A DNA stretch of 64,000 nucleotides from Dictyostelium discoideum (Eukaryota), in assembly GCA_000004695.1 (NCBI GenBank), contig CM000151.3, positions 2,432,001 through 2,496,000 of the forward strand, in the 5' to 3' direction. Of this stretch, positions 3,520 through 18,835 are shown in pieces. The translations under genes were made by a program, and so were the position numbers. A model generated the notes under the pieces. That model searched no databases and was not told where the DNA came from. It worked only from the letters and a program-made list of their open reading frames with translations. Position 1 is the first letter of the stretch, and every line of letters begins with the position of its first letter.

Positions 3520-5553
3520 GTGAAAATGGTTTCAAATAATGATGATTTATTTTTTAAAATTTTTAGAAATCAATATATTAATAGAGAAATATTTAATAAA
3601 GTTAAAGAATATAATAAGAAATTAAAATATATCAGATATAATTATTATGATTTACCTTTAGAATTAATAATAAAAAAAAAAAATCAACAATTATTTGTAG
3701 AAAAATTAAAAGATTTTTTAAAACTTAAAAATGAAATAAAAGAGAATGGATTCACCAAAGAAAATCAATCAAATGTACATAAATATTTTATTAGATTTGA
3801 TGAAGGGCAAATATTACTTTTATTAGGATGGAAAGAATTGGATTTAGAATCATTTGATCTTTATTTAAGAATATTTGAAAATGAAATTAAAAATCGGAAT
3901 GAAATAACATTATATATTAACCCCAGTGGTTTTGAAATATGTGATGATAAATTCATACACTTTTTAGAAAAAAAAACATTTAGAAAATTAATTAAATTTG
4001 ATAATATCGTTGCCTTTGTATATAGAGGGGTTCATTCAATAAGATTATTAAATTATTTTATTGATAATTGTAAAGATTTAAATAGTGATGCTTTAAAAGA
4101 TTTAAATAATCTATATACTATATTTTCATTGTATTATTCAAATGGGAAAAATGAAGATTTAAAATACGAATATCTAAAGAGAATAAAAAGGTCAAATCAA
4201 TATTTTTCACGTTTAAATTCCTTTACAAGATTTATTGAAGATGCAATAAGAAATGAAGATTTAAAAATGTTAAAATCGCTACTTTCTCTTTTTAAATATG
4301 ATAAAAAACAAACCAATCCAACAGATCACCATCCAGATGATATAGTTACAATATTGGATATTCAAATTTCAATTAAAATATTAGAGCAATTAAAAATTAG
4401 TATTAATTCATTTAGAGGAAATGATAAATTATTACCATTTTATAAAATTTTAATAGAACGAGTATACTCTTCAAATAACTATTTCAAAAAAGAACAAAAA
4501 AAGAGACTTACAATAGCCTCAATAGAGTTTAGAAATTATGCAATTGACAAGATGTTAAATAATGGCTTCTATGCCAGTGATGAAAGAATGTTTGAAAATA
4601 TTTCATTCGCTTCAAATTGTATAAATGATGATGATCCAAACAATCTTTCAGAATATGATAAATTATTATTAAAACCAGAGTTTTTATCAGTACTTTTTTA
4701 TAAATGTAAAATAATGAATAGAGATTTAAATTTATTCAAATTATATCTGGTTAAATTTGGATTCAACTTTGAAAAATTATTAACTATAATAGAATTAAAT
4801 TATGAAAACATGGTATCTTATGTAATTTCAAACCTTTCTGAAATTGTTTTAAATCGATATTTAGATTTAATTGATTTTTCATTACCATCAAATGAAAGTG
4901 AAGGTTATGATTTTGTTTTTAATTTAGTTTTACCATTGTTAACTTTTGAAGAAACATTATCACTACACGAAAAAATTCAAAGCATCAAATTACCTTTCAA
5001 CTCTGAAAGAAGAAGAAAATTCATTTTAAAATCATATGAAATTGAATCAAAAATTGATGAAATTAATAGAAATAAAATCAATCAAAGATTTTTAAAAAAT
5101 TTTCTTAATAGAAAAGAAATTTTAATTGAAATTTGTAATAGCAAAACACTAACTGATTTAATATTTTGTAATTTAAAATCAGAGAATTTTAAAACAATTA
5201 AAAAAATTAAAAAACTTTGTTTTATCATTGATAAAACTTTATTAGCTAAATTTATTTGTTCAATTTATTGTGATTATTCAAAATCACTTTTATACTTAAT
5301 TCACATTCTAGATATTAATAATATTAATGATAATGATAATAATAATAATATAACAATTCCACAATCCATCTCCTCAAAATTTTCAAGTTTCGAAATGGCA
5401 ATGGGCCAAAGTATGCAGTATTTTTTATTAAATTTAAAATCAAGCTATGATGAAGAAAAAGATGGCCAGATGGTAACTGTAGACATTCAACCCCCAACAA
5501 AAAGTAATAATTATAATTTTATCAAAAAAGCACTATCATTTTTAAAAAAGTAA
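3520..5553 (+). CDS. Hypothetical protein, 677 aa, single exon, K/N/I-rich; no recognisable domain
   Basis: 2 kb uninterrupted ORF in a genome whose non-coding DNA is full of stops; ATG at 3520 after an A/T-rich leader; stop followed by an oligo(T)/oligo(A) terminator-like tract. Confidence 0.7.
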   Translation: MKMVSNNDDLFFKIFRNQYINREIFNKVKEYNKKLKYIRYNYYDLPLELIIKKKNQQLFVEKLKDFLKLKNEIKENGFTKENQSNVHKYFIRFDEGQILLLLGWKELDLESFDLYLRIFENEIKNRNEITLYINPSGFEICDDKFIHFLEKKTFRKLIKFDNIVAFVYRGVHSIRLLNYFIDNCKDLNSDALKDLNNLYTIFSLYYSNGKNEDLKYEYLKRIKRSNQYFSRLNSFTRFIEDAIRNEDLKMLKSLLSLFKYDKKQTNPTDHHPDDIVTILDIQISIKILEQLKISINSFRGNDKLLPFYKILIERVYSSNNYFKKEQKKRLTIASIEFRNYAIDKMLNNGFYASDERMFENISFASNCINDDDPNNLSEYDKLLLKPEFLSVLFYKCKIMNRDLNLFKLYLVKFGFNFEKLLTIIELNYENMVSYVISNLSEIVLNRYLDLIDFSLPSNESEGYDFVFNLVLPLLTFEETLSLHEKIQSIKLPFNSERRRKFILKSYEIESKIDEINRNKINQRFLKNFLNRKEILIEICNSKTLTDLIFCNLKSENFKTIKKIKKLCFIIDKTLLAKFICSIYCDYSKSLLYLIHILDINNINDNDNNNNITIPQSISSKFSSFEMAMGQSMQYFLLNLKSSYDEEKDGQMVTVDIQPPTKSNNYNFIKKALSFLKK

Positions 5554-5689: not shown

Positions 5690-5737
<48 letters not shown>
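5690..5737. repeat. Poly(T) homopolymer, ~48 nt, between convergent gene ends
   Basis: Seen directly; lies at the 3' ends of the + gene ending 5553 and the - gene ending 5736. Confidence 0.9.
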
Positions 5738-5739
<2 letters not shown>

Positions 5740-8700
5740 CTCTTTGAAAAACATAACATACAACCTTGATCTTCAATACAACAATGATGATATGAATGAC
5801 CACAATTTGGGAATACTATAATTGTAGCGGGTGTTGAACCTAAAAATGAAGATTCAGGATTTTCAGCTAAAGATAAGGTACAAATTGGACAAGAACCAGT
5901 TGATAATTCAGTTTCTACACCCCAATGTCTACGTGAATTATCTTCAAAGAATGAAGGTATTTTAAAATCGATATTATCACCACTATCATGACTTGAAGTT
6001 CCAAGTTTATTAAAGAATTCTTTGAATGGATTATTTGGTAAAGTTGGGTCCAATTCAGGACCAATCATAGTTAAGAATTGAGGTGAAATGGTCAAGGGTT
6101 TCTTTAACCATAAATGACTATCCAAAAGTGATAAGATATCATATGATAACTTTGGTCTATCATACAACGACCATTTTCCAAATTTAATCCAATCTGATAA
6201 TAATTTAGTTTCAATTTTACTCTTTTCAAACATTTCTGAAAATTTGCAAACCAATTCAATAGTTTCCAATGGACCAATTGCTTTACCAATTAAATCCAAT
6301 ATAAATAATTCTGAAATTTCAAATGTAATACTTGATTCACCAGATTGATCTTCATTTTCATGTTGATCAATTCTTAATTGTTTCATAATTTCTAAAGTAT
6401 TTGACCAAATTTCAATTGATGTACTATTTTCAAAACAATTTGAAAAACCTTTTTTATCATCAGTGAAAATGGTTAATTCCAAGAGTTTCTTTGAATAATG
6501 ATTCAATTGTTCTTGATTATGTAAAATGGATTTCATAGAATAAACATTTTTGAAATAATGTTCATAAATTTTATAAAGGCCAATATGAAAACCATTTTCA
6601 GCAGACATTGATTCCAATGATTTCAATAAATTACCATTACCATATTCATTATTAATTACATTATCAATAATTTGTATTAAAGTATCTTTTGATTTCCATT
6701 CAATTAAATTTGATTTTAATTTTGGTATAAATTTTCTTGTTGATGTTGTTGACATATCTTCTCTTTCTTCAAATAATTGATTTTGATTTGGTTTATTATT
6801 CATTAAATTTGAAAGGAACCATTGTTCTAATAATTCTAGTGAATTAAATTTACATTCTGGTTTTAATTTCATTAATTGATTTAAATATTCAAATTTAATT
6901 AAATTACCTAATTCTTTATTACTTCTACTACCACCACCACTATCATTACTTTTATTAATAATAATATCATCGTTTTCAATTAAAGAATTTGTAAAATTTA
7001 AAATATTTCTTGGTAATATAATTGGGAAATGTTTTGCAAAGAATTTTGAAGATTCAATTGGATCCAATTCTAATAATTGATTTAAGAATCTAAATAATAA
7101 TCCATAATCATTTGAACAATGACTATCCAATAATGTTAAACAAGTTGAAGAATCTGAAGAATCAATGAATTGATAAATGGTTGAGATTATCTTTGATTCT
7201 TGTTTTGTAAATGATTCAAATTCAACCAATTGTTCTATACATCTATCCCATTTACGTTCATTTGAATTTAAATAAACTCTATTGGTATTTAAAAATTGAT
7301 AATACTCTTTAATGAATTCAATTGCTAATTGTTCATTCCAACACTTACAAAGTTTATTTGTATGTGTTAAACTTTTACCATTTCCACCACTACCACTACC
7401 ACCACCAGTACTACACTCTTTAGTAGATTTCAAATTTATACCAAAACAGAAACAACTTGTAACTATATCTTTTATCATATCACTTGGAATAACACTATCT
7501 TCGATAGAATTAAATAATTGTACCCAAATTTGTAACATTGGTTCAAATGATGTTGTTTTTGTCTTATTCTCTTTATATTGTTGTAAAGATTCATAGGTTT
7601 GTTTGGTTAATTTCTCTAAAACTTCAATTGGATGTTGTTGTGATTGTTGTTCATTTACTATTGTTGTATTTAAATTATCTGTTATTGTTGTTGCTGTTGT
7701 TGCTGTTGCTGTTGCTGTTGTTGTATTATTTAATGTTACATTTGTATTATTACTTGAATTTATATCATCACCACTTGATGGACCTAAAATTTTATGTGTA
7801 ATATCAGATTTAATTTCATTTGTTTTATTTAATGCAAATTGCTTAATCTCCAAGAATGATGATGTAGCTGAATTTAATGTTTTAAAAATACCCTGTTGTA
7901 TATTATTAGCTGTAACTGTTGTTGCTGATGTTGGTATTGGTGTTGGTGTTGGTGCTATTGTAGTTTCTTCTTTTTTTGGTGATAATGATACTTCTGCTGG
8001 TGTGGTTGTTGTTGTTGTTGTTGATGATGATACGGTTTCTACATATAAAGGTGGTGATGGTGTAGGATTTGAAATTGGTGGCGATGAGATTTGTGGTGTG
8101 GTTGTAGTTGTAGTTGATAATGCCGCTGCTTTTTTAATAATTTTTTTCTTTACAATAACTGTTCTTTTGACTTCTGTTGGTGCTCCTATTGATGTTGATG
8201 TTGCTGTTGCTGTTGTTGCTGTTGTTGATGATGATACTATTGATTGTGGTGGTGAAGTTGATAGAGTTGCTGTATTATTTGTTCCATTTAATTGTTGATC
8301 CTGTGGTAATGCTGTTTTTATAACCTTTTTCTTTATAACCTTTCTAGTTGTTGATGCAGCTAAAGTTGGATCTTTAACACTTGTTGATACCATTAATGGT
8401 TCTGATGATAAAGGAATATCTGAGAAAATACATTCTTTTGATGCTACTCTTTGAATTGATGTTTCAACTGCTGTTGTCGTTGTTGTACTATCCAATAATT
8501 TATCATCAACGAATTGATCAGTTGATGATTTTAATGATGAAGGTTGTTGTTGTTGTTGTTGTTGTTGTTGTTGGTTTGATGATTCACTAACTAATGGCAA
8601 ACTTGCACTACCTTCAATAGTTAATGAATTTGTACTACTTGATAATGTAGAATTATCAGTATTTGTACTATCAATTTCACTACCAATTATATTATCACTA

Positions 8701-8946
8701 TTTGATAAAGTTGTTAAATTCTCTTTTTTTAAAAAAAAAAAAATAAATAAAAAAAAAAAAGTATTAATATATCAATTCAGCAAAATCATTAAAGTATCCT
8801 TTTTTTTTAAAAAAAAAAAAAAAAAAAAAATTACCTTGTGATTCAGATTTCTTTGGTTGTAATTGTTCATCTTTCTTTTCCTCAATTAATGAGGCTATTG
8901 CTATTGGTTGTGGTTGTGATTGTGGTTCACTTATTATTTCCTCAGG

Positions 8947-8982
<36 letters not shown>

Positions 8983-10458
8983 TTGTAATTGATCAGATTG
9001 TTCTTGTAATTCTTGAGGAGTTGGTAAAATTTCTAAAGGAATTGAAGTGAAAATTCTAGAGATAGAATGATTTTGACCATGTAATGCATAGATTGAATCA
9101 TGATAAACAACCAAGTCATGAATTTGATTTGTATCTAATTTCCATTCTAAAACTTCAACTTCATTAACATCGATTAAGAGTAATGATAATTCATCATATG
9201 ATATTAAGTAATTACCAAATGGTAATAACTTTGAGAATATCATTGGGAATTTACCAGTGAGATAAGTATTTGCATCATTGGATGAATTTGAAGATATTAA
9301 TGGTTTTGGTTTCAATATTATATTTGGTATTGGATTTGTAGTACCATCTTCGTTTGTGGTTGAGGATGGTGTGAAATTCATAGTCGATAAAACACGACCA
9401 TCAATTGGATCGGCTAACCATAATCTTTTGCCAGGTCTTGATGTGTAAACAGAGGATTTATAAAATGGGTGAAAACAAGCACCCTGTTTAGTATTCTCAC
9501 GTTGTTTCTTACCAATTTGAATGATACTCAATACTTTACCAACATTGGTAGCTGTTAGTATTTGAAAATTTACAACTATCGATTTGGTTAATGTGCTTGC
9601 TAATATTGAAATAGTGATTGAGTTTACTGGTGGTATTGAATTTGTTATTGGTATAGTATGTACAATATTTTGTTGTTGTTGATGATGATTATTTAATGAC
9701 GAATTATTCGAATTTGAATTTGAGTTTGTGGTTAATTGAATATCCTGGTGTAGTTGTGTATTTGTTATTGTTGGTATCGATGGTATTATATCCAATTGTA
9801 CAAGTTTTGAATCACATTTATAAACTAGGTCAGCAGAGAAAAAGAATGATTTTCTAGCTTTTGTGACGGAACAACAATAAAGGTTACCCAAATCATCGCC
9901 ACTAAATAAATAACCACCGCAATGACTCCATATCAATGTTGTAATTTCTGCATCTTTTGGATGATCTGTCATCTTGACCAATACTTTCTCTTTCTCTCTA
10001 CGAATTGATATATTCGGTTCAATGATGAATATGGTCTTATGTGTTGCAATCGCTACTAAATTATCATTACATGGATTTATCTTTATAATTGAAATTTGAT
10101 CCCTTATATCATTTAATGATAAAATTTGTGTGAATGATAAATTTTCATTTGTAAATATTTTAACTGTTGGTAATAAATATGATTGTGGTTGTTGTAGTTG
10201 TGGTTGTAGTTGTTGTTGATTATCTTGATTTTTATTCTTTGGAATTATTGATGACATTGATTTCCTTTCAAAGAAATATAAACTACCAGTATTTGCACCC
10301 AATGCTAAATATCTTTTTGAAACATCTAAACATGTATACTTTACTCTACCACCACCACCTATTGGTGATAATATACTATCTAAATCATTTATAACTAATT
10401 GTGGTGTTGGTTGCTGTTGTTGTTGATTTGTTGTTTGTTGTTCCTCTTCATTGGTCAT
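5736..10458 (-). CDS. HPS5-like WD40/beta-propeller protein with a long alpha-helical C-terminal region ending in a RING-H2-like zinc finger; 2 exons (10458-8835, 8722-5736), ~1545 aa
   Basis: Exon 1 ORF 8764-10458 starts MTNEEEQQ…; the segment RVKYTCLDVSKRYLALGANTGSLYFFERKS … GKKQRENTKQGACFHPF resembles the HPS5 N-terminal propeller as I recall it ([26 protein letters not shown] … KERDGEYGACF). Donor CAAG|GTAATTTTTT at minus 8834/8833, acceptor (A)nAG at 8724/8723; the junction codon G+AG=GAG keeps the frame into the 954-aa ORF, whose annotated M is actually a TTG (so it is an internal exon). C-terminus CPICTLSL…CGHSYHHCC…CMLC fits the C-x2-C…C-x-H-x2-H-x-C…C-x2-C RING-H2 pattern. Internal poly-Q (CAA)n and T/S-rich low complexity. 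Confidence 0.6.
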
Positions 10459-11858: not shown

Positions 11859-13685
11859 ATGGTAATTTCATCTCCAATAACAAAAATTAAAAAATTAAAA
11901 GAGGATAACATCGACAACAGTAGCAGCAGTAATAGTAATAGTAATAGTAATAATAATAATAATGAAATAAATAATTTTGGAAACCACCACCATAATGATG
12001 ATAATATATCATTTTCTAGTAATAATAATAATAATAATAATAATAGTAATAAAGGCAGTAATATTAATAATAGTAGTACAACAACAACAACAACATCAAC
12101 ACCATTAATTGGAGGAGATGGTGGTGGAGATTCTTGTGAAGTCAAAAGAAGTAGGAATATATTACCACATGAAGTATTATTAACAAGAGTAACATTTAAA
12201 GTTGAAACACCAATTGGATACGTTAGAGAGAATAATGTTTTAGCAATCATTGGTGATAGTGCAGAGATTGGAAATTGGAAATCAAAGGATGCACCTCAAA
12301 TGGTTAATTCCGAATGTACAGATACTCATTTAATTTGGACTATAATTTTATCATTCCCAAAAGCAACTAGAATCAATTATAAATATATCATTAAATCAAA
12401 TAGTAATAATAGTAATCATCAAAATCAAAATAATCATCATCATCATCATCATCACAGAAATCAATTAATTAATAGCAATGGGTCAACATCATCAATCACA
12501 TCAACATCATCGTCATCGTCATCAATTACAAGTAAATCAAATTTAGTTGAATGGGAAGCAAGTAAGGGATTGAGTAGAACATTATCAATTGAAGGTATTG
12601 ATATGTTTGTTAATGATGGGTTATTTGGAGTATTAGAGTCTGGTTCAAAACCATGGATTGGTAGAGGTTGGTTACCAGAGGATGAATATCAATTACGTAT
12701 TCAATTACAATGTGACGATAATCAATCACCAGTTCATCTATATGATCATCTAATTGAACAAAATCAATTGGTACTTCGTTTACATGATCCATTTGGTTTA
12801 TCACAAGATTTTCATTTACCAATGACTGGTTTCACCGAATTGGTATTACATACTCATTCATTATCTTCTTTTAGTTTTAGTGTAACTTTATTATTAAAAG
12901 ATGGTTTGAATTTACCAATTACCACCACTACCAACAATACAACTACTACTACTACCACTACCACCACCGCCACAGCCAATAGTAATATTGGTAGTAATGG
13001 TGCATCATCTCCAACATCATATCCATCATCACCAAATGGTTATAAAGTTTTAGGTAAATCATATATTTGTTCTAATCAAGTTTCGACAGATTTATGGGGT
13101 AAGTTATATACTCCAATAATTGGGGAGAAGTATTTCCCAATTGGTGAATTTCGTTGCAACTATTTAGTGGTGACACCATTTTCTCATCCTCAAAATTCAC
13201 TATCAAATCTTTGGCATTCATTCGTTGAACAACCTCAAACATTAATTGGACATCGTGGTAATGGTAAGAACAATTTTGGTATCAATGCAAACGCTGTCAC
13301 AGAGAATACAATTTTATCATTTTTAACAGCGGCTCAATTTGGAGCTAAAATGGTGGAATTCGATTTACAATTAACCTTTGATGGTGTACCAGTGATTTTC
13401 CATGATTATGAAATTGAAATTGAAACAAATGAAGGTTTCACAATGAAAGAGACAATCAATCGTTTAACATTGGAACAATTTTTAAAGGTGAAACCGACAA
13501 CAAACAAAAGTGATTTAATTAGTCAAAAATTGAAAAGATTAAAATCATTACGTATTTCAAAGAGTACAAGTGATCTATTATCATTATCAAGTTGTCCATC
13601 TTCAACTTCATTTGATCCTTCCTCATTTTTAGAAAATGTTACACAATGTAATAGTAATTTGGTTGTCAGTGATAATAATAACAAC

Positions 13686-13741
<56 letters not shown>

Positions 13742-14571
13742 TAATGATAATAATAATAATAATAATAATAAAAATAATAATACAATTAGACCATCTAGTA
13801 TCATTCATGATCGTTTTTCAACACTTCAAGATGCTTTTCATTTAGTACCACAAGAAATTGGTTTTATGATTGAAATTAAATATCCAAATTTAGCAATGCA
13901 AAATTTACGTAAGTTTAAAGCACCTGAAAGAAATGAATTTATTGATATAATTTTAAATGTATGTAATTTTTTAAATCTTAATCTCTCCCTTTAATTTATA
14001 TAAATTTAAAAAATTAATTATTTTTATTTTTATTATTTTTTTTTTTTTAATTTTAAAAATAGATTGTTTTTAATGAAACAAATGATAGAAGAATTGCATT
14101 TTTAACATTTGATCCAGATATCGCAATTTTATTAAGAACTAAACAATTTAGATATCCAGTTTTATTTTTAGTTTGTTGTGATACACCAACATTCTTTGAA
14201 GAATTCGACCCAGATGTAAATATTAATGATAATAGAGGTAATAGCATTACAAATGCAATATCTTTTGTTAAAACTGTAAATTTGGATGGTATTGTTTGTG
14301 ATAGTCAAACAATTTTAAATAATCATTCTTTTGTAAATTTAATTCATAGTGATAATTTATTATTATTCACTTATGGTAGTAAAAAGTAAGTTTTTTTATA
14401 TTATTTTATTTTAATTTTTTAATTTTTTAATTTATCTATAAAAAGATATTAACATTTATTTTTTTTTTTCCAGTGTTGATCCTGTTAATGTAAAAATTCA
14501 AAAAGAATTGGGTGTTGATGGAATCATAGCTGATAATATTACAAAGTTAAATAAAACCGTTATTGGTTTTT
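11859..14571 (+). CDS. Glycerophosphodiester phosphodiesterase with N-terminal CBM20 starch-binding-like domain (GPCPD1/GDE5-like); 3 exons 11859-13958, 14063-14385, 14474-14571
   Basis: CBM20-like block (LTRVTFKVETPIGYVRENNVLAIIGDSAEIGNWKSKDAPQMV…HLIWT) followed by the GDPD catalytic core (IGHRGNGKN…ENTILSFLTAAQFGAKMVEFDLQLTFDGVPVIFHDYEI). Donors GTATGT (13959) and GTAAGT (14386), acceptors AAATAG (14062) and T9CCAG (14473). Phases checked: exon 2 leaves AA, which joins T to give AAT. Stop TGA at 14569-14571. Long poly-N (AAT)n insert at 13680-13790. Confidence 0.8.
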
Positions 14572-15279: not shown

Positions 15280-16933
15280 ATGGCAATTAATTATGAAATA
15301 AATGGTAATGAAATTAAAAATTTACAAACTATCACTTACAATTATAAAGAACCAATTGAAATTGATAAAGAGTTAGAATGTATGATTTGCTTATTACCAC
15401 TTTTGGAACCAGTAGTCGAACCAAATTGCAGACAAATGGTAAACTATTATAATTTTAAAAAAAAATAATGTAATGAATGTAATTTTAATAATTTTTTTTT
15501 TTTTTTTTAAAAATGTTTTTTAGTTTTGTAAAGATTGTTTAACAAATTGGTCTATTGAAAAAGGTCAAAAAGGATGTCCATATTGCCAACAATCATTTAA
15601 TATAAAATCAGTTAGTTTACCACCAAAATTTGTAACAAATACATTAGATAGTTTATTAGTTTATTGCAATACAGATGGTTGTGAATTCAATAGTAATAGT
15701 GATAGAAATCAATTAATTCGTCGTTGTGAATATAGAAATCATTTTGAAAGAATTTGTAAAGTAATATGTATTGATTGTAATCAACAATTTACAAGAGAAC
15801 AATTAAAATTACACTCAAATGAATGTACTTCAAAATCAGTTAAATGTAATGCAAGTTCATTAATGTGTTCATGGGTTGGTCCAATTAAAGAATTGCAATC
15901 ACATGAATCAAATTGTCATTACATTGCATTATCGCCAATACTCAATAAATTATATGATAAAATCCAACAATTAGATATCAGTAATCAAAAAACCACCTCA
16001 TTTTTATTAGAAAAAATAAATTATTTAGAATCAATAATTTCATCATCATCAGCATTATCAACACCAAATTTGAGTTCTCCAATTTATTATCAACCAATTC
16101 CAACTGCTCCATTACCAGACTCAACAACAATGTATGATAATAGAAATACAACCACCACAACAACCACAACAACAACAATTTCATTGGATAAAATTACACC
16201 GGTTGAAATTAAAAAAGTAGCATCAATTGAAATTTTTAAAAATAATAGTAATAAATATGTAATTGGTAAAGTTGAATCAGGTGTTAAGAGTGTATCGATT
16301 GATGGAGATTATGCAGATACATGGCCAATTGTTAAAGGTAATTTACCAAATTCAGTTGACACATTAATATTATTAGATGGATTTAAAGAATTGGTATACT
16401 CTGTTCCAAAATCAATTAAAGTACTACACATTGGTGATATTAAAAAATCACATGCATTCTATATTCAATGCAGTTCAGTTAATGAAATTCATTTTCATGA
16501 TAATTGTAAAATTAAATTCACAAAGAATGTTATACCAGATTCAGCTAAAACAGTTCACTTTTATAGAATTAATGAACCATTAACAACTGAATCAATTGGT
16601 AAGAATGTAAAATGTCTTCATATACATGATGGATTTTCAAAATCATTAGGATATGGTGTTTTACCATCATCAATTCAAGAATTACATTTATATGATATTA
16701 AAAGACAAGCATTGTCAATACCAAGCTCAATTAAAATATTATACCTTCATAATCAATTCAATAATGAATCAATTGAATTACCTGATCAACTTGAAACTCT
16801 TTATCTTGATAACATTATCCACCCAATTAAAAATTTCCCATCATCTTTAAAAACAATTCATTTAATTAATTATAAATTTGAAGATAAAGTACCATTTCCA
16901 CCAAAAGTTAAAATTATTATGGGGACAAAATAA
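15280..16933 (+). CDS. RING finger + TRAF-type zinc finger + FNIP-repeat protein; 2 exons 15280-15438, 15524-16933; 523 aa
   Basis: Exon 1 MAINYEING…LECMICLLPLLEPVVEPNCRQM ends at donor GTAAAC (15439); acceptor T8AG at 15523. Exon 2 begins FCKDCLTNWSIEKGQKGCPYCQQ (completing a C3HC4 RING), followed by Cys/His TRAF-type fingers (CEFNSNSDRNQLIRRCEYRNHFERICKVICIDCNQQF…HSNECTSKSVKCN). The C-terminal half is FNIP repeats (LPNSVDTLILLDGFKELVYSVPKSIKVLHIG…), a repeat type characteristic of Dictyostelium. Confidence 0.75.
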
Positions 16934-17036: not shown

Positions 17037-18835
17037 TTATTTTCTTTTTTCAAGAATTACTTTGAATGGGTTTGGTTTTAATGTTAAACCATAAGTTTGA
17101 GTTTCATCAACTGGTTTACCATCAATTGATTTAAATTTGAAATTTAATATCATATTTGATAATGCAATATAAATTTCATCTTGGGCAAAATTACTTCCAC
17201 TAAATTATTAAAAATAAAAAATTAATATCTGAAAATATATACATGATAATACTCAAATCAATTAAGTAATTGAGTGAGAATATAATTTAGATACATTACA
17301 CGCAATTTCTTGGACCAATACTAAATGGCATGAAAGCTGGATTTGAATCAGAATTTAAAAATCTAGTTGGATCAAATTGATTTGGATTTTCAAAATATTC
17401 TTCATTTCTAGATAATGCATGATAATTAATTAAAATTTGAGCATTCTTTGGAATAAATTGACCATTATTTAAAATGATATCAGAGGTAGTTGATCTTGGT
17501 AAACCAAATGGTGATATTGGTTTATATCTTAATGTTTCTTTAAATAATGATACAACAAATGGTGTTGATTGTCTATCTGATAACAAAACTTTATTTCTCT
17601 GAGTTAAACCACCACCACCACCGCCACCATTTGATGATAATGCTGATTTAATTTCATTATAAGCTTTCTCTTGATATTCTGGATAATTAATTAACATCAT
17701 TACAATTAATTCTAAAGAAGTTGCAGAAGTATCAACACCAGCTAAAAAGAAATCACTAACTGTTGCAGAGATTGATAAAATTTGATCATCAGTTTCTGTA
17801 CCATATTCTTTAATCAATAGATCCATTAAGTCTCTTTGAACATCTGGTTTGTAAGTTTCTAAATGTTTATAAATTTTCATTTTACCAAAATTAATAACTT
17901 GATAATAATGACTTGTAAACCATTCTAAATATAAGAAATACAATGGTCTTGTTATCTCTAAAACATCAAATAAACTACCAGTACCGAAATCTTTGAATAC
18001 CTTTTGCATTGGTTTCATTAATTGTGCTAATTGACCATTATGCACATCTTCATCTTTGGAAATATCTTCATTGAAAATATATTTAAACATTGCTGACATT
18101 GTAAATTTGGTTAAATAATAACGTGGATCAAATGTTTCACCACTGGATTCAATGGTTCTCATCGATTCAATTAATACATCAACTTGATCATCCAATAATT
18201 GATAAATATGTTTTAAATTGGTCTTTCTCATTGCCTTACCAACAATCTCTTTATTATTTTTCCAATTATCACCCATTGATGCTACTGTACCATGATAAAA
18301 TGTTCCATGTTTTACTGACTATTTATTTTATTTTATTTATTTAATTAATTAATCTTATTTATTATTATTAAAAAAAAAAGAAATAAAAACTATTATAAAA
18401 AAAAAAAAAATTTTACATACTGGTATTTTTGGTCTGTCAATGAAATTGTCAAACTTGTCAACAAATAGCTCTCTTGCAATTATTGGATCACAAACAATAA
18501 CTGTATATAAGTCTGCTAAATAAATTCTAAAGATTTTACCATATTTTTCACTCATCTTTGTTAAATCAAAATGAGGTAAATTGGTTAACTGATAAATGTT
18601 GCCCAATATAGGAATTGGAAAAGGACCTGGTAATTGATTTTCATTTAATCTTTTATATTTTGAATACTTTTATTTTTATTTTTTTTTTTTTATTTTTTTT
18701 TTTTTTTTTTTTTGGTAGACTAACATGTTTTTTAAATTTTTTAGAAAATAAAAAAAAGAAAAAATAATAAAAAAATACTTACAGCATTATGTAAAATATA
18801 AATTAAAAATAGATACACAATGATGCCAAATATCA
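17037..18835 (-). CDS. Cytochrome P450 (copy 1 of 3 tandem paralogues); 4 exons approx. 18835-18787, 18665-18423, ~18310-17300, 17209-17037
   Basis: N-terminal membrane anchor [18 protein letters not shown]; proline-rich hinge [23 protein letters not shown]; ETLRYKP (ExxR); heme loop [11 protein letters not shown] split by a phase-2 intron (TGC GT|gtaatg … tttag|T) so that CVG|[21 protein letters not shown]… is restored. Stop after …VILEKRK at 17039-17037. Confidence 0.8.

What the first reader, a model, noticed from the sequence alone, without database searches (positions are those of the whole stretch)
5736..10458. HPS5-like beta-propeller fused to a C-terminal RING-H2 (HOPS/CORVET-like architecture)
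The exon 1 product resembles the HPS5 (BLOC-2) N-terminal propeller. After a phase-consistent intron (GAG junction), the gene continues into a ~990-aa alpha-rich region that ends in a C-x2-C…C-x-H-x2-H-x-C…C-x2-C RING-H2. Propeller + solenoid + RING-H2 is the Vps8/11/18/41 layout. Human HPS5 lacks a recognisable RING. This would therefore be an ancestral-looking BLOC-2 subunit supporting the proposed common origin of BLOC-2 and HOPS/CORVET, or alternatively a Vps8-type protein.
Basis: partly seen in the sequence, partly recalled or inferred. Interest (0 to 1): 0.6.

Follow-up and report, generated by a model that had tools for sequence, protein, structure and literature searches.

The report
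Dictyostelium HPS5 gene with C-terminal RING
This is the Dictyostelium discoideum gene for HPS5, a subunit of the BLOC-2 lysosome-trafficking complex, and its propeller-solenoid-RING layout, which links BLOC-2 to the HOPS/CORVET tethers, is real but was already published in 2024.

Summary
A two-exon gene on the minus strand (10458..8835 and 8722..5736, with a 112-nt phase-1 intron) encodes a 1,536-aa protein. That protein is identical to the annotated D. discoideum AX4 protein XP_644334.1, which is named only "RING zinc finger-containing protein". The N-terminus is an HPS5-type seven-bladed propeller (Pfam PF23756, 169 bits against a cutoff of 34). The C-terminal helical domain is homologous to the vertebrate HPS5 solenoid (hhalign 97%, E 8e-11). 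The last 47 residues form a C3H2C3 RING-H2 that 67 of 76 homologues share. It is not Vps8, Vps41 or TECPR2. A family-wide profile of the C-terminal half hits Vps18, Vps11 and Vps8 ahead of every other solved structure. All ten vertebrate HPS5 proteins I inspected end just before the RING, and invertebrate HPS5 proteins keep it. One correction: about 365 residues of exon 2 are a disordered Thr/Ser-rich linker, not helix. The idea is not new. More, Dacks and Manna (PNAS 2024) reported the ancestral HPS5 RING and the BLOC-2 to HOPS/CORVET homology. Papers citing Thomason et al. (Curr Biol 2024) say that study characterised Dictyostelium BLOC-2 experimentally. What the RING does (assembly module or ubiquitin ligase) remains untested.

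The parts
5736..10458 (-). Whole HPS5 gene (ATG at 10458 to the TAA stop at 5738-5736), two exons, 1,536 aa
   Evidence: The product is identical to XP_644334.1.
8835..10458 (-). Exon 1 (aa 1-541 plus the first base of codon 542)
8723..8834 (-). Intron, 112 nt, 9.8% GC, GTAATT...AG, phase 1
   Evidence: D. purpureum has a 63-nt phase-1 intron in the same linker.
5736..8722 (-). Exon 2 (aa 542-1536 plus the stop codon)
9046..10398 (-). Seven-bladed HPS5-type beta-propeller (aa 21-471), with two disordered Q/N-rich insertions at about aa 76-101 and 237-273
   Evidence: PF23756 169 bits. AF2 model with pLDDT 80.8, pTM 0.80 and 28 strands. Foldseek hits to 7-bladed WD40 propellers.
7635..8958 (-). 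Low-complexity Thr/Ser/Gln/Pro-rich linker (aa 501-904), interrupted by the intron. It contains three islands conserved among dictyostelids, including the basic motifs RKVIKKKVIK (8316-8345) and KRTVIVKKKIIK (8133-8168).
   Evidence: Composition and the four-species alignment.
5997..7634 (-). Alpha-solenoid (aa 905-1450), homologous to the HPS5 TPR domain. It ends at the family-conserved LDSHLWLKKP motif (6093-6128).
   Evidence: AF2 model pLDDT 85, pTM 0.74, almost entirely helical. hhalign of dictyostelids against vertebrate HPS5: 97%, E 7.9e-11, aa 959-1367. The Heterostelium orthologue passes PF23758.
5916..5927 (-). Conserved HWGV motif (aa 1474-1477), 9-12 residues (counted from the Trp) before the first RING cysteine
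   Evidence: W and G are invariant across 25 long homologues. Spacing statistics.
5751..5891 (-). C-terminal RING-H2 (aa 1486-1532): C-x2-C-x25-C-x-H-x2-H-x2-C-x5-C-x2-C
   Evidence: Sub-threshold Pfam hits: zf_RING_Vps8 22.6 bits, zf-rbx1 19 bits, zf-RING_Vps41 14 bits. All eight ligands are invariant.

Best explanation
This is the D. discoideum orthologue of HPS5, a subunit of BLOC-2 (HPS3/HPS5/HPS6). It has the full protocoatomer-type layout: a seven-bladed beta-propeller, a long disordered linker, an HPS5-type alpha-solenoid, and a C-terminal zinc-binding RING-H2. The identity and the architecture are shown here. The function comes from the literature: Dictyostelium BLOC-2 is reported to sit on endolysosomes and to promote their maturation through the WASH complex. 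My inference is that the RING acts mainly as a zinc-stabilised docking module that fixes the C-terminal end of HPS5 to another subunit. This would parallel the RING-RING contact by which VPS18 recruits VPS41 into human HOPS. I think a catalytic ubiquitin-ligase role is less likely. The RING must be dispensable for the core BLOC-2 function, because vertebrates truncated HPS5 just after the solenoid and still form BLOC-2.
Against: The HOPS/CORVET similarity is not detectable from this protein or from dictyostelids alone. The Pfam Vps8 RING hit is below cutoff (22.6 against 27.3 bits). A dictyostelid-only profile finds nothing significant in the PDB. Fold searches are dominated by generic TPR and WD40 proteins. 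PF23758 does not hit the Dictyostelium sequence directly. No tool result bears on what the RING binds or whether it is catalytic, so the assembly role is inference. I could not read Thomason et al. 2024, so that this exact gene is their HPS5 is also inferred.
Confidence: 0.85

Rival explanations
1. The RING is a catalytically active E3 ubiquitin ligase. On this view ancestral (and Dictyostelium) BLOC-2 ubiquitinates itself or cargo on endolysosomes, and vertebrates lost this activity.
For: All eight C3H2C3 ligands are present with RING-H2 spacing and are invariant across homologues. A hydrophobic residue sits at C1+2 (Ile1488; V/L/I in 33 of 67 members), which is a canonical E2-contact position. 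The profile also gives weak hits to true E3 RINGs such as TRIM21, Arkadia and RNF13 at E 0.005-0.01. The conservation is stronger than zinc binding alone would seem to require: the HWGV motif and the TLPL and VVFPCGH blocks.
Against: Loop 2 is only 5 residues, which leaves no room for the helix that carries the second E2-contact residue. Pro after C7 is present in only 9 of 67 members and is Met here. The nearest relatives are HOPS/CORVET RINGs, whose documented role is subunit recruitment (PMC5651818). The domain has been lost repeatedly without loss of BLOC-2 (PMC11513930).
Confidence: 0.15
2. The gene encodes a Vps8- or Vps41-type CORVET/HOPS subunit rather than HPS5.
For: The same propeller-solenoid-RING layout. 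The best RING model in Pfam is zf_RING_Vps8 at 22.6 bits.
Against: There is no Beta-prop_VPS8, Beta-prop_Vps41 or clathrin/CHCR hit at E<=1, and both RING hits are below cutoff. The propeller scores 169 bits on HPS5. The solenoid aligns to vertebrate HPS5 at E 7.9e-11. The homologues carry PF23756 and PF23758.
Confidence: 0.02
3. It is an orthologue of TECPR2, the paralogue of HPS5 that shares a similar N-terminal propeller.
For: HPS5 and TECPR2 are recognised paralogues (PMC11513930), so a propeller hit alone might not separate them.
Against: The C-terminal half is an alpha-solenoid plus RING, not TECPR beta-repeats. It aligns colinearly with the vertebrate HPS5 solenoid. Pfam finds no tectonin/TECPR domains.
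Confidence: 0.02
4. The two ORFs are separate genes or transcripts, and the fusion is an artefact of the gene model.
For: The intron lies in a poorly conserved low-complexity region.
Against: The gap is 112 nt at 9.8% GC with consensus GT..AG ends and a consistent phase. The exon-2 frame has no ATG for 109 codons. The spliced product equals the curated annotation. Orthologues in D. purpureum, Heterostelium, Rigifila (from a transcriptome), Capsaspora, Lingula and Branchiostoma are single polypeptides with both halves. D. purpureum has a phase-1 intron in the same place.
Confidence: 0.02

Closest known systems
HPS5 (BLOC-2 subunit; human HPS5, mouse ruby-eye-2, Drosophila pink)
   Same: HPS5-type seven-bladed propeller (PF23756). 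Homologous alpha-solenoid (PF23758 region; hhalign 97%), with shared motifs such as F[IL][KR]xYFxLLD, FYPxILP, C...GFWxG and LE..D.[FY]LWS.
   Different: The vertebrate proteins are about 1,100-1,200 aa and stop right after the LWS motif, so they have no HWGV motif and no RING. The Dictyostelium protein also has a linker of about 400 aa and Q/N-rich insertions inside the propeller.
RING-bearing HPS5 of other eukaryotes (Lingula anatina, Branchiostoma, Capsaspora, Rigifila), as described by More, Dacks and Manna, PNAS 2024
   Same: The same overall architecture and the same RING signature: W-G-x9-12-C-P-x-C-T-L-P-L...V-V-F-P-C-G-H-A-[FY]-H-x2-C-x5-C-x2-C.
   Different: Only lineage-specific details differ. 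The dictyostelids and a few other members have a long loop 1 (25 residues, ENPESSFLGSTPAT insert), and the dictyostelid linker is low-complexity.
HOPS/CORVET class C subunits Vps18, Vps11, Vps8 and Vps41
   Same: Propeller, solenoid and C-terminal RING-H2 layout. The HPS5 family profile matches the Vps18 solenoid and RING, and the Vps11 and Vps8 RINGs, ahead of everything else in the PDB.
   Different: It is not a member of these families: the propeller and solenoid models of these families do not hit it. Loop 2 of the HPS5 RING is much shorter, 5 residues against 17 in yeast Pep5 in the alignment. The protein belongs to a different complex (BLOC-2).
TECPR2
   Same: A paralogous N-terminal WD40 propeller (PMC11513930).
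   Different: TECPR2 has C-terminal tectonin beta-propeller repeats (own knowledge). This protein has a helical solenoid plus RING.

Membership tests
HPS5 (BLOC-2 subunit) | N-terminal HPS5-type beta-propeller (Pfam PF23756 above its gathering score) | tested here: met
   169.3 bits against a cutoff of 34, E 1.7e-49. The AF2 model is a 7-bladed propeller with pTM 0.80.
HPS5 (BLOC-2 subunit) | HPS5-type alpha-solenoid (PF23758 TPR_HPS5) following the propeller | tested here: met
   The direct Pfam scan gives no hit at E<=1. However, the Heterostelium orthologue (45% identical over this half) scores 38.6 bits against a cutoff of 27. A dictyostelid-only profile aligns to the vertebrate-only HPS5 solenoid at 97% probability, E 7.9e-11, over 327 colinear columns.
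HPS5 (BLOC-2 subunit) | Closest named relatives are HPS5, linked by a reciprocal chain of similarity | tested here: met
   The C-terminal half retrieves Lingula (E 7.4e-7) and Branchiostoma 'BLOC-2 complex member HPS5-like' (names). The Branchiostoma protein retrieves vertebrate HPS5 at about E 1e-170. No formal phylogeny was made.
HPS5 (BLOC-2 subunit) | Physical assembly with HPS3 and HPS6 into BLOC-2 | not testable with these tools
   Reported for Dictyostelium by Thomason et al. 2024, as summarised in PMC12493267 and PMC11513930. The primary paper is not held.
Vps8 (CORVET) | Vps8 beta-propeller (PF23410) and Vps8 RING (PF23412) above their gathering scores | tested here: not met
   No PF23410 hit at E<=1. 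PF23412 scores 22.6 bits, below the cutoff of 27.3.
Vps41 (HOPS) | Vps41 propeller, clathrin/CHCR repeat and Vps41 RING (PF23555) above their gathering scores | tested here: not met
   No propeller or CHCR hit. PF23555 scores 14 bits, below the cutoff of 30.3.
TECPR2 | C-terminal tectonin (TECPR) beta-propeller repeats | tested here: not met
   No such Pfam hit. The C-terminal half is modelled as almost entirely helical with pLDDT 85.
RING-H2 zinc fingers | Eight ligands C3H2C3 with the spacing C-x2-C-x(9-39)-C-x(1-3)-H-x(2-3)-H-x2-C-x(4-48)-C-x2-C | tested here: met
   C1486, C1489, C1515, H1517, H1520, C1523, C1529 and C1532. All eight are invariant in 25 long homologues. Zinc binding itself was not tested.
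Catalytic RING E3 ubiquitin ligases | Conserved E2-contact residues (hydrophobic at C1+2, hydrophobic in the loop-2 helix, Pro at C7+1) and ubiquitin-transfer activity | tested here: inconclusive
   Ile is present at C1+2. Loop 2 is only 5 residues and lacks the helix position. C7+1 is Met here and Pro in only 9 of 67 family members. Activity cannot be tested with these tools.

The most novel reading that the evidence does not exclude
The ancestral HPS5 RING, together with its strictly conserved HWGV motif, is a working ubiquitin ligase or a RING-RING adaptor that couples BLOC-2 to another RING-bearing tether such as HOPS or CORVET. On this reading BLOC-2 in most eukaryotes has an activity that is invisible in the human, mouse and fly systems where the complex has been studied, because those lineages deleted the domain.
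Probability: 0.15. Interest if true: 0.6.

Novelty: already known. Interest (0 to 1): 0.2.

Why it matters
BLOC-2 is a Hermansky-Pudlak syndrome complex whose molecular action is still poorly understood. The HPS5 RING is the clearest sequence link between BLOC-2 and the HOPS/CORVET tethers. It is missing from human, mouse and fly HPS5, so it can only be studied in organisms such as Dictyostelium, which is genetically tractable and where BLOC-2 mutants reportedly already exist. The evolutionary argument has been published, so this window adds confirmation rather than discovery. The practical gains are small. The NCBI and UniProt name ("RING zinc finger-containing protein") could be updated to HPS5. 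The precise RING and HWGV signature, and the point where vertebrate HPS5 is truncated, define clean constructs for testing what the RING does.

Tried and rejected
1. Word-indexed homology searches with the C-terminal half and with the propeller core returned nothing, not even the query's own protein. The exhaustive HMMER search was needed instead.
2. Thomason et al. 2024 could not be retrieved by PubMed id or DOI. The supplementary tables of More et al. are not held. I therefore could not confirm that they list this exact accession.
3. phmmer of the single protein against PDB sequences gave only marginal RBX2 hits.
4. A dictyostelid-only profile against the PDB gave nothing significant. The HOPS/CORVET link needs the family-wide profile.
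6. The AFDB50 fold library was unavailable.
7. Alternative in-frame GT..AG introns exist (donor 8930, acceptors 8612 or 8591). I rejected them because they are longer, richer in GC and remove coding-like sequence, and because the 8834/8723 pair reproduces the annotated protein exactly.
8. The first hhalign run (A2 against vertebrates, E 5e-92) was not a fair test, because A2 contains full-length animal HPS5 proteins. I replaced it with the stringent dictyostelid-only run.
Full report
**What is in the sequence.** The window is about 20% GC and full of poly-Q/N/T tracts. One neighbouring gene carries FNIP repeats, which fits a Dictyostelium genome. On the minus strand, an ORF starts at ATG 10458 and runs to a consensus donor, AAG|GTAATT, with the exon ending at 8835. 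A 112-nt stretch of 9.8% GC follows and ends in AG at 8723. The reading frame then continues from 8722 to TAA at 5738-5736. Other in-frame GT..AG pairs exist, but they are longer and richer in GC. The exon-2 frame has no ATG for 109 codons, so it is unlikely to be a separate gene. The spliced product is 1,536 aa. It is identical, residue for residue, to the annotated D. discoideum AX4 protein XP_644334.1 (EAL70409.1 / EAL70937.1), which is named only "RING zinc finger-containing protein". This confirms the gene model and identifies the organism. The D. purpureum orthologue (XP_003285031, 1,459 aa) also has one short phase-1 intron in the same post-propeller linker.

**The N-terminal half.** Pfam gives Beta-prop_HPS5 (PF23756) at 169 bits against a curated cutoff of 34, E 1.7e-49. 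No Vps8 or Vps41 propeller model appears even at E<=1. An AlphaFold2 model built on 36 homologues is confident (pLDDT 80.8, pTM 0.80). It has 28 strands, which means seven blades. The two low-confidence stretches are the Q-rich and N/Q-rich insertions. Foldseek finds only generic seven-bladed WD40 propellers, so the fold is confirmed but the family assignment rests on sequence.

**The middle.** Residues 501-904 are a Thr/Ser/Gln/Pro-rich low-complexity linker (56% STNQPG), not helix. Three short islands in the linker are conserved among four dictyostelids: DIPLSSEPLI, [RK]K[VI]IKKK.[IVA]K and KRTV[IV][IV]KKK[IL][IV]KK.

**The C-terminal half.**
- Word-indexed searches failed, so I ran an exhaustive phmmer of aa 905-1536 against 1.8 billion representative proteins. 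It found 76 homologues.
- All of them align at their own C-termini. 67 match a W-G...RING-H2 pattern.
- Of 25 long homologues, 21 carry Beta-prop_HPS5 (best E 7.6e-138) and 16 carry TPR_HPS5.
- The named ones include D. purpureum, Heterostelium album, Rigifila (from a transcriptome), Capsaspora, Lingula anatina and Branchiostoma "BLOC-2 complex member HPS5-like".
- PF23758 does not hit the Dictyostelium sequence directly, but the Heterostelium orthologue passes its cutoff.
- In a deliberately stringent test, a profile of only the four dictyostelid C-terminal halves aligned to only the post-propeller part of twelve vertebrate HPS5 proteins with 97% probability, E 7.9e-11, over 327 colinear columns.
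- The AlphaFold2 model of this half is confident (pLDDT 85, pTM 0.74). It shows an alpha-solenoid with one beta-hairpin and a small C-terminal zinc-finger-like module.

Both halves are therefore HPS5. The Vps8, Vps41 and TECPR2 alternatives are rejected.

**The RING.** The ligands are C1486, C1489, C1515, H1517, H1520, C1523, C1529 and C1532, giving C-x2-C-x25-C-x-H-x2-H-x2-C-x5-C-x2-C. All eight are invariant in 25 long homologues, as are the W and G of a preceding HWGV motif. The family signature is W-G-x9-12-C-P-x-C-T-L-P-L...V-V-F-P-C-G-H-A-[FY]-H-x2-C-[VLI]-P-E-x-A-C-x2-C. The second loop is 5 residues in 57 of 67 members. This pattern cannot be chance.

**Loss in vertebrates.** I used the Branchiostoma protein to retrieve named HPS5 proteins and then inspected their C-termini.
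- Ten vertebrate proteins, from shark and coelacanth to primate, all end at "...RFLWSQQA".
- This is exactly the family-conserved LE..D.[FY]LWS motif that closes the solenoid. They have no HWGV motif and no RING.
- Amphioxus, hemichordate, echinoderm, bivalve, brachiopod and coral HPS5 all keep the RING.
- Among the 118 further hits, only ten match the RING pattern, and all ten are invertebrate proteins.

**Relation to HOPS/CORVET.** I searched a profile of the family's C-terminal half against all PDB sequences.
- The top hit is Vps18 (E 2.1e-11), through both a 300-residue solenoid stretch and the RING.
- Next come Vps11/Pep5 (8.9e-8) and Vps8 (4.6e-5).
- Ordinary E3 RINGs begin only at E 0.005.
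- Some family members pass the curated cutoffs of the Vps8 or Vps41 RING models.
- The link disappears when only dictyostelid sequences are used, and this protein's own Vps8-RING score is below cutoff.

The homology is therefore a family-level inference and cannot be read from this gene alone.

**What is already known.** More, Dacks and Manna (PNAS 2024, PMC11513930) report the following:
- About a third of HPS5 proteins have a C-terminal RING.
- Human and Drosophila lost it, while animals such as Lingula kept it.
- All BLOC-2 subunits are propeller plus solenoid.
- HPS5 profiles retrieve HOPS/CORVET RING domains exclusively.

A preprint of that work dates from January 2024. Their note added in proof, and a 2025 review (PMC12493267), describe Thomason et al. 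(Curr Biol 2024). According to those sources, that study found a four-subunit BLOC-2 in Dictyostelium that localises to endolysosomes, acts through WASH, and is modelled as a proto-coatomer complex. I could not read that paper.

**How it most likely works.**
- Shown here: the protein is HPS5 with a complete propeller-linker-solenoid-RING layout.
- From the literature: it is part of BLOC-2, which matures endolysosomes in this organism.
- Inferred: the RING is mainly an assembly or docking module, as in human HOPS, where the VPS18 and VPS41 RINGs heterodimerise to recruit VPS41 (PMC5651818).

Three points favour docking over catalysis. The second loop is only 5 residues. The usual Pro after the seventh ligand is missing. 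The domain has been lost repeatedly while BLOC-2 persists. A catalytic E3 role is not excluded, and I give it about 0.15.

**Small additions beyond the published account.** None of these changes the picture.
- The HWGV motif and the fixed 5-residue second loop.
- The exact point at which vertebrate HPS5 is truncated.
- A significant solenoid-level match to Vps18, not only RING-level matches.
- The conserved basic islands in the dictyostelid linker.
- The public protein name still lacks "HPS5".

**Verdict.** The finding is already known, and I score its interest as low (0.2).

Noticed in passing
window 8133-8168 and 8316-8345 (minus strand; aa 727-738 and 668-677), and about aa 643-652: Three short islands inside the otherwise unconserved Thr/Ser-rich linker are conserved across four dictyostelid HPS5 orthologues: DIPLSSEPLI, [RK]K[VI]IKKK.[IVA]K and KRTV[IV][IV]KKK[IL][IV]KK. 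They may be short linear motifs, for example basic-hydrophobic patches for membrane or partner binding.
   Followed up: partly
whole gene, window 5736-10458: The identical protein carries two AX4 GenBank protein accessions (EAL70409.1 and EAL70937.1) on an 8.48-Mb contig. This would fit the known large duplication on chromosome 2 of strain AX4 (my own knowledge, not tested), in which case the lab strain has two copies of hps5.
   Followed up: no
vertebrate HPS5 proteins P0087-P0172, compared with window 6093-6128 (LDSHLWLKKP): Vertebrate HPS5 ends exactly at the family-conserved LE..D.[FY]LWS motif ('...RFLWSQQA'). The loss of the RING therefore looks like a clean C-terminal truncation of about 120-130 residues on the vertebrate stem. 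Amphioxus, hemichordates and echinoderms keep the RING.
   Followed up: partly
window 3520-5553 (+): A 677-aa ORF converges tail-to-tail on the HPS5 gene, with the stop codons about 180 nt apart across a poly-A/T tract. It has no Pfam hit at E<=0.01. It is probably an uncharacterised lineage-specific gene.
   Followed up: no
window 11859-13994 (+): The divergent upstream neighbour encodes a protein with a CBM20 starch-binding domain and a glycerophosphodiester phosphodiesterase (GDPD) domain, plus a GDE1-like C2 hit just below cutoff. The GDPD match covers only profile positions 1-132 of 244, so the gene probably continues past an intron.
   Followed up: no
window 15863-16933 (+) and 17296-18276 (-): An FNIP-repeat protein gene and a cytochrome P450 exon (PF00067, E 7e-61) lie further upstream.
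   Followed up: no
Homologous-protein searches: The word-indexed search failed to return the query's own protein or its dictyostelid orthologues, although all of them are in the underlying collection. For low-complexity-rich Dictyostelium proteins this index gives false negatives.
   Followed up: yes
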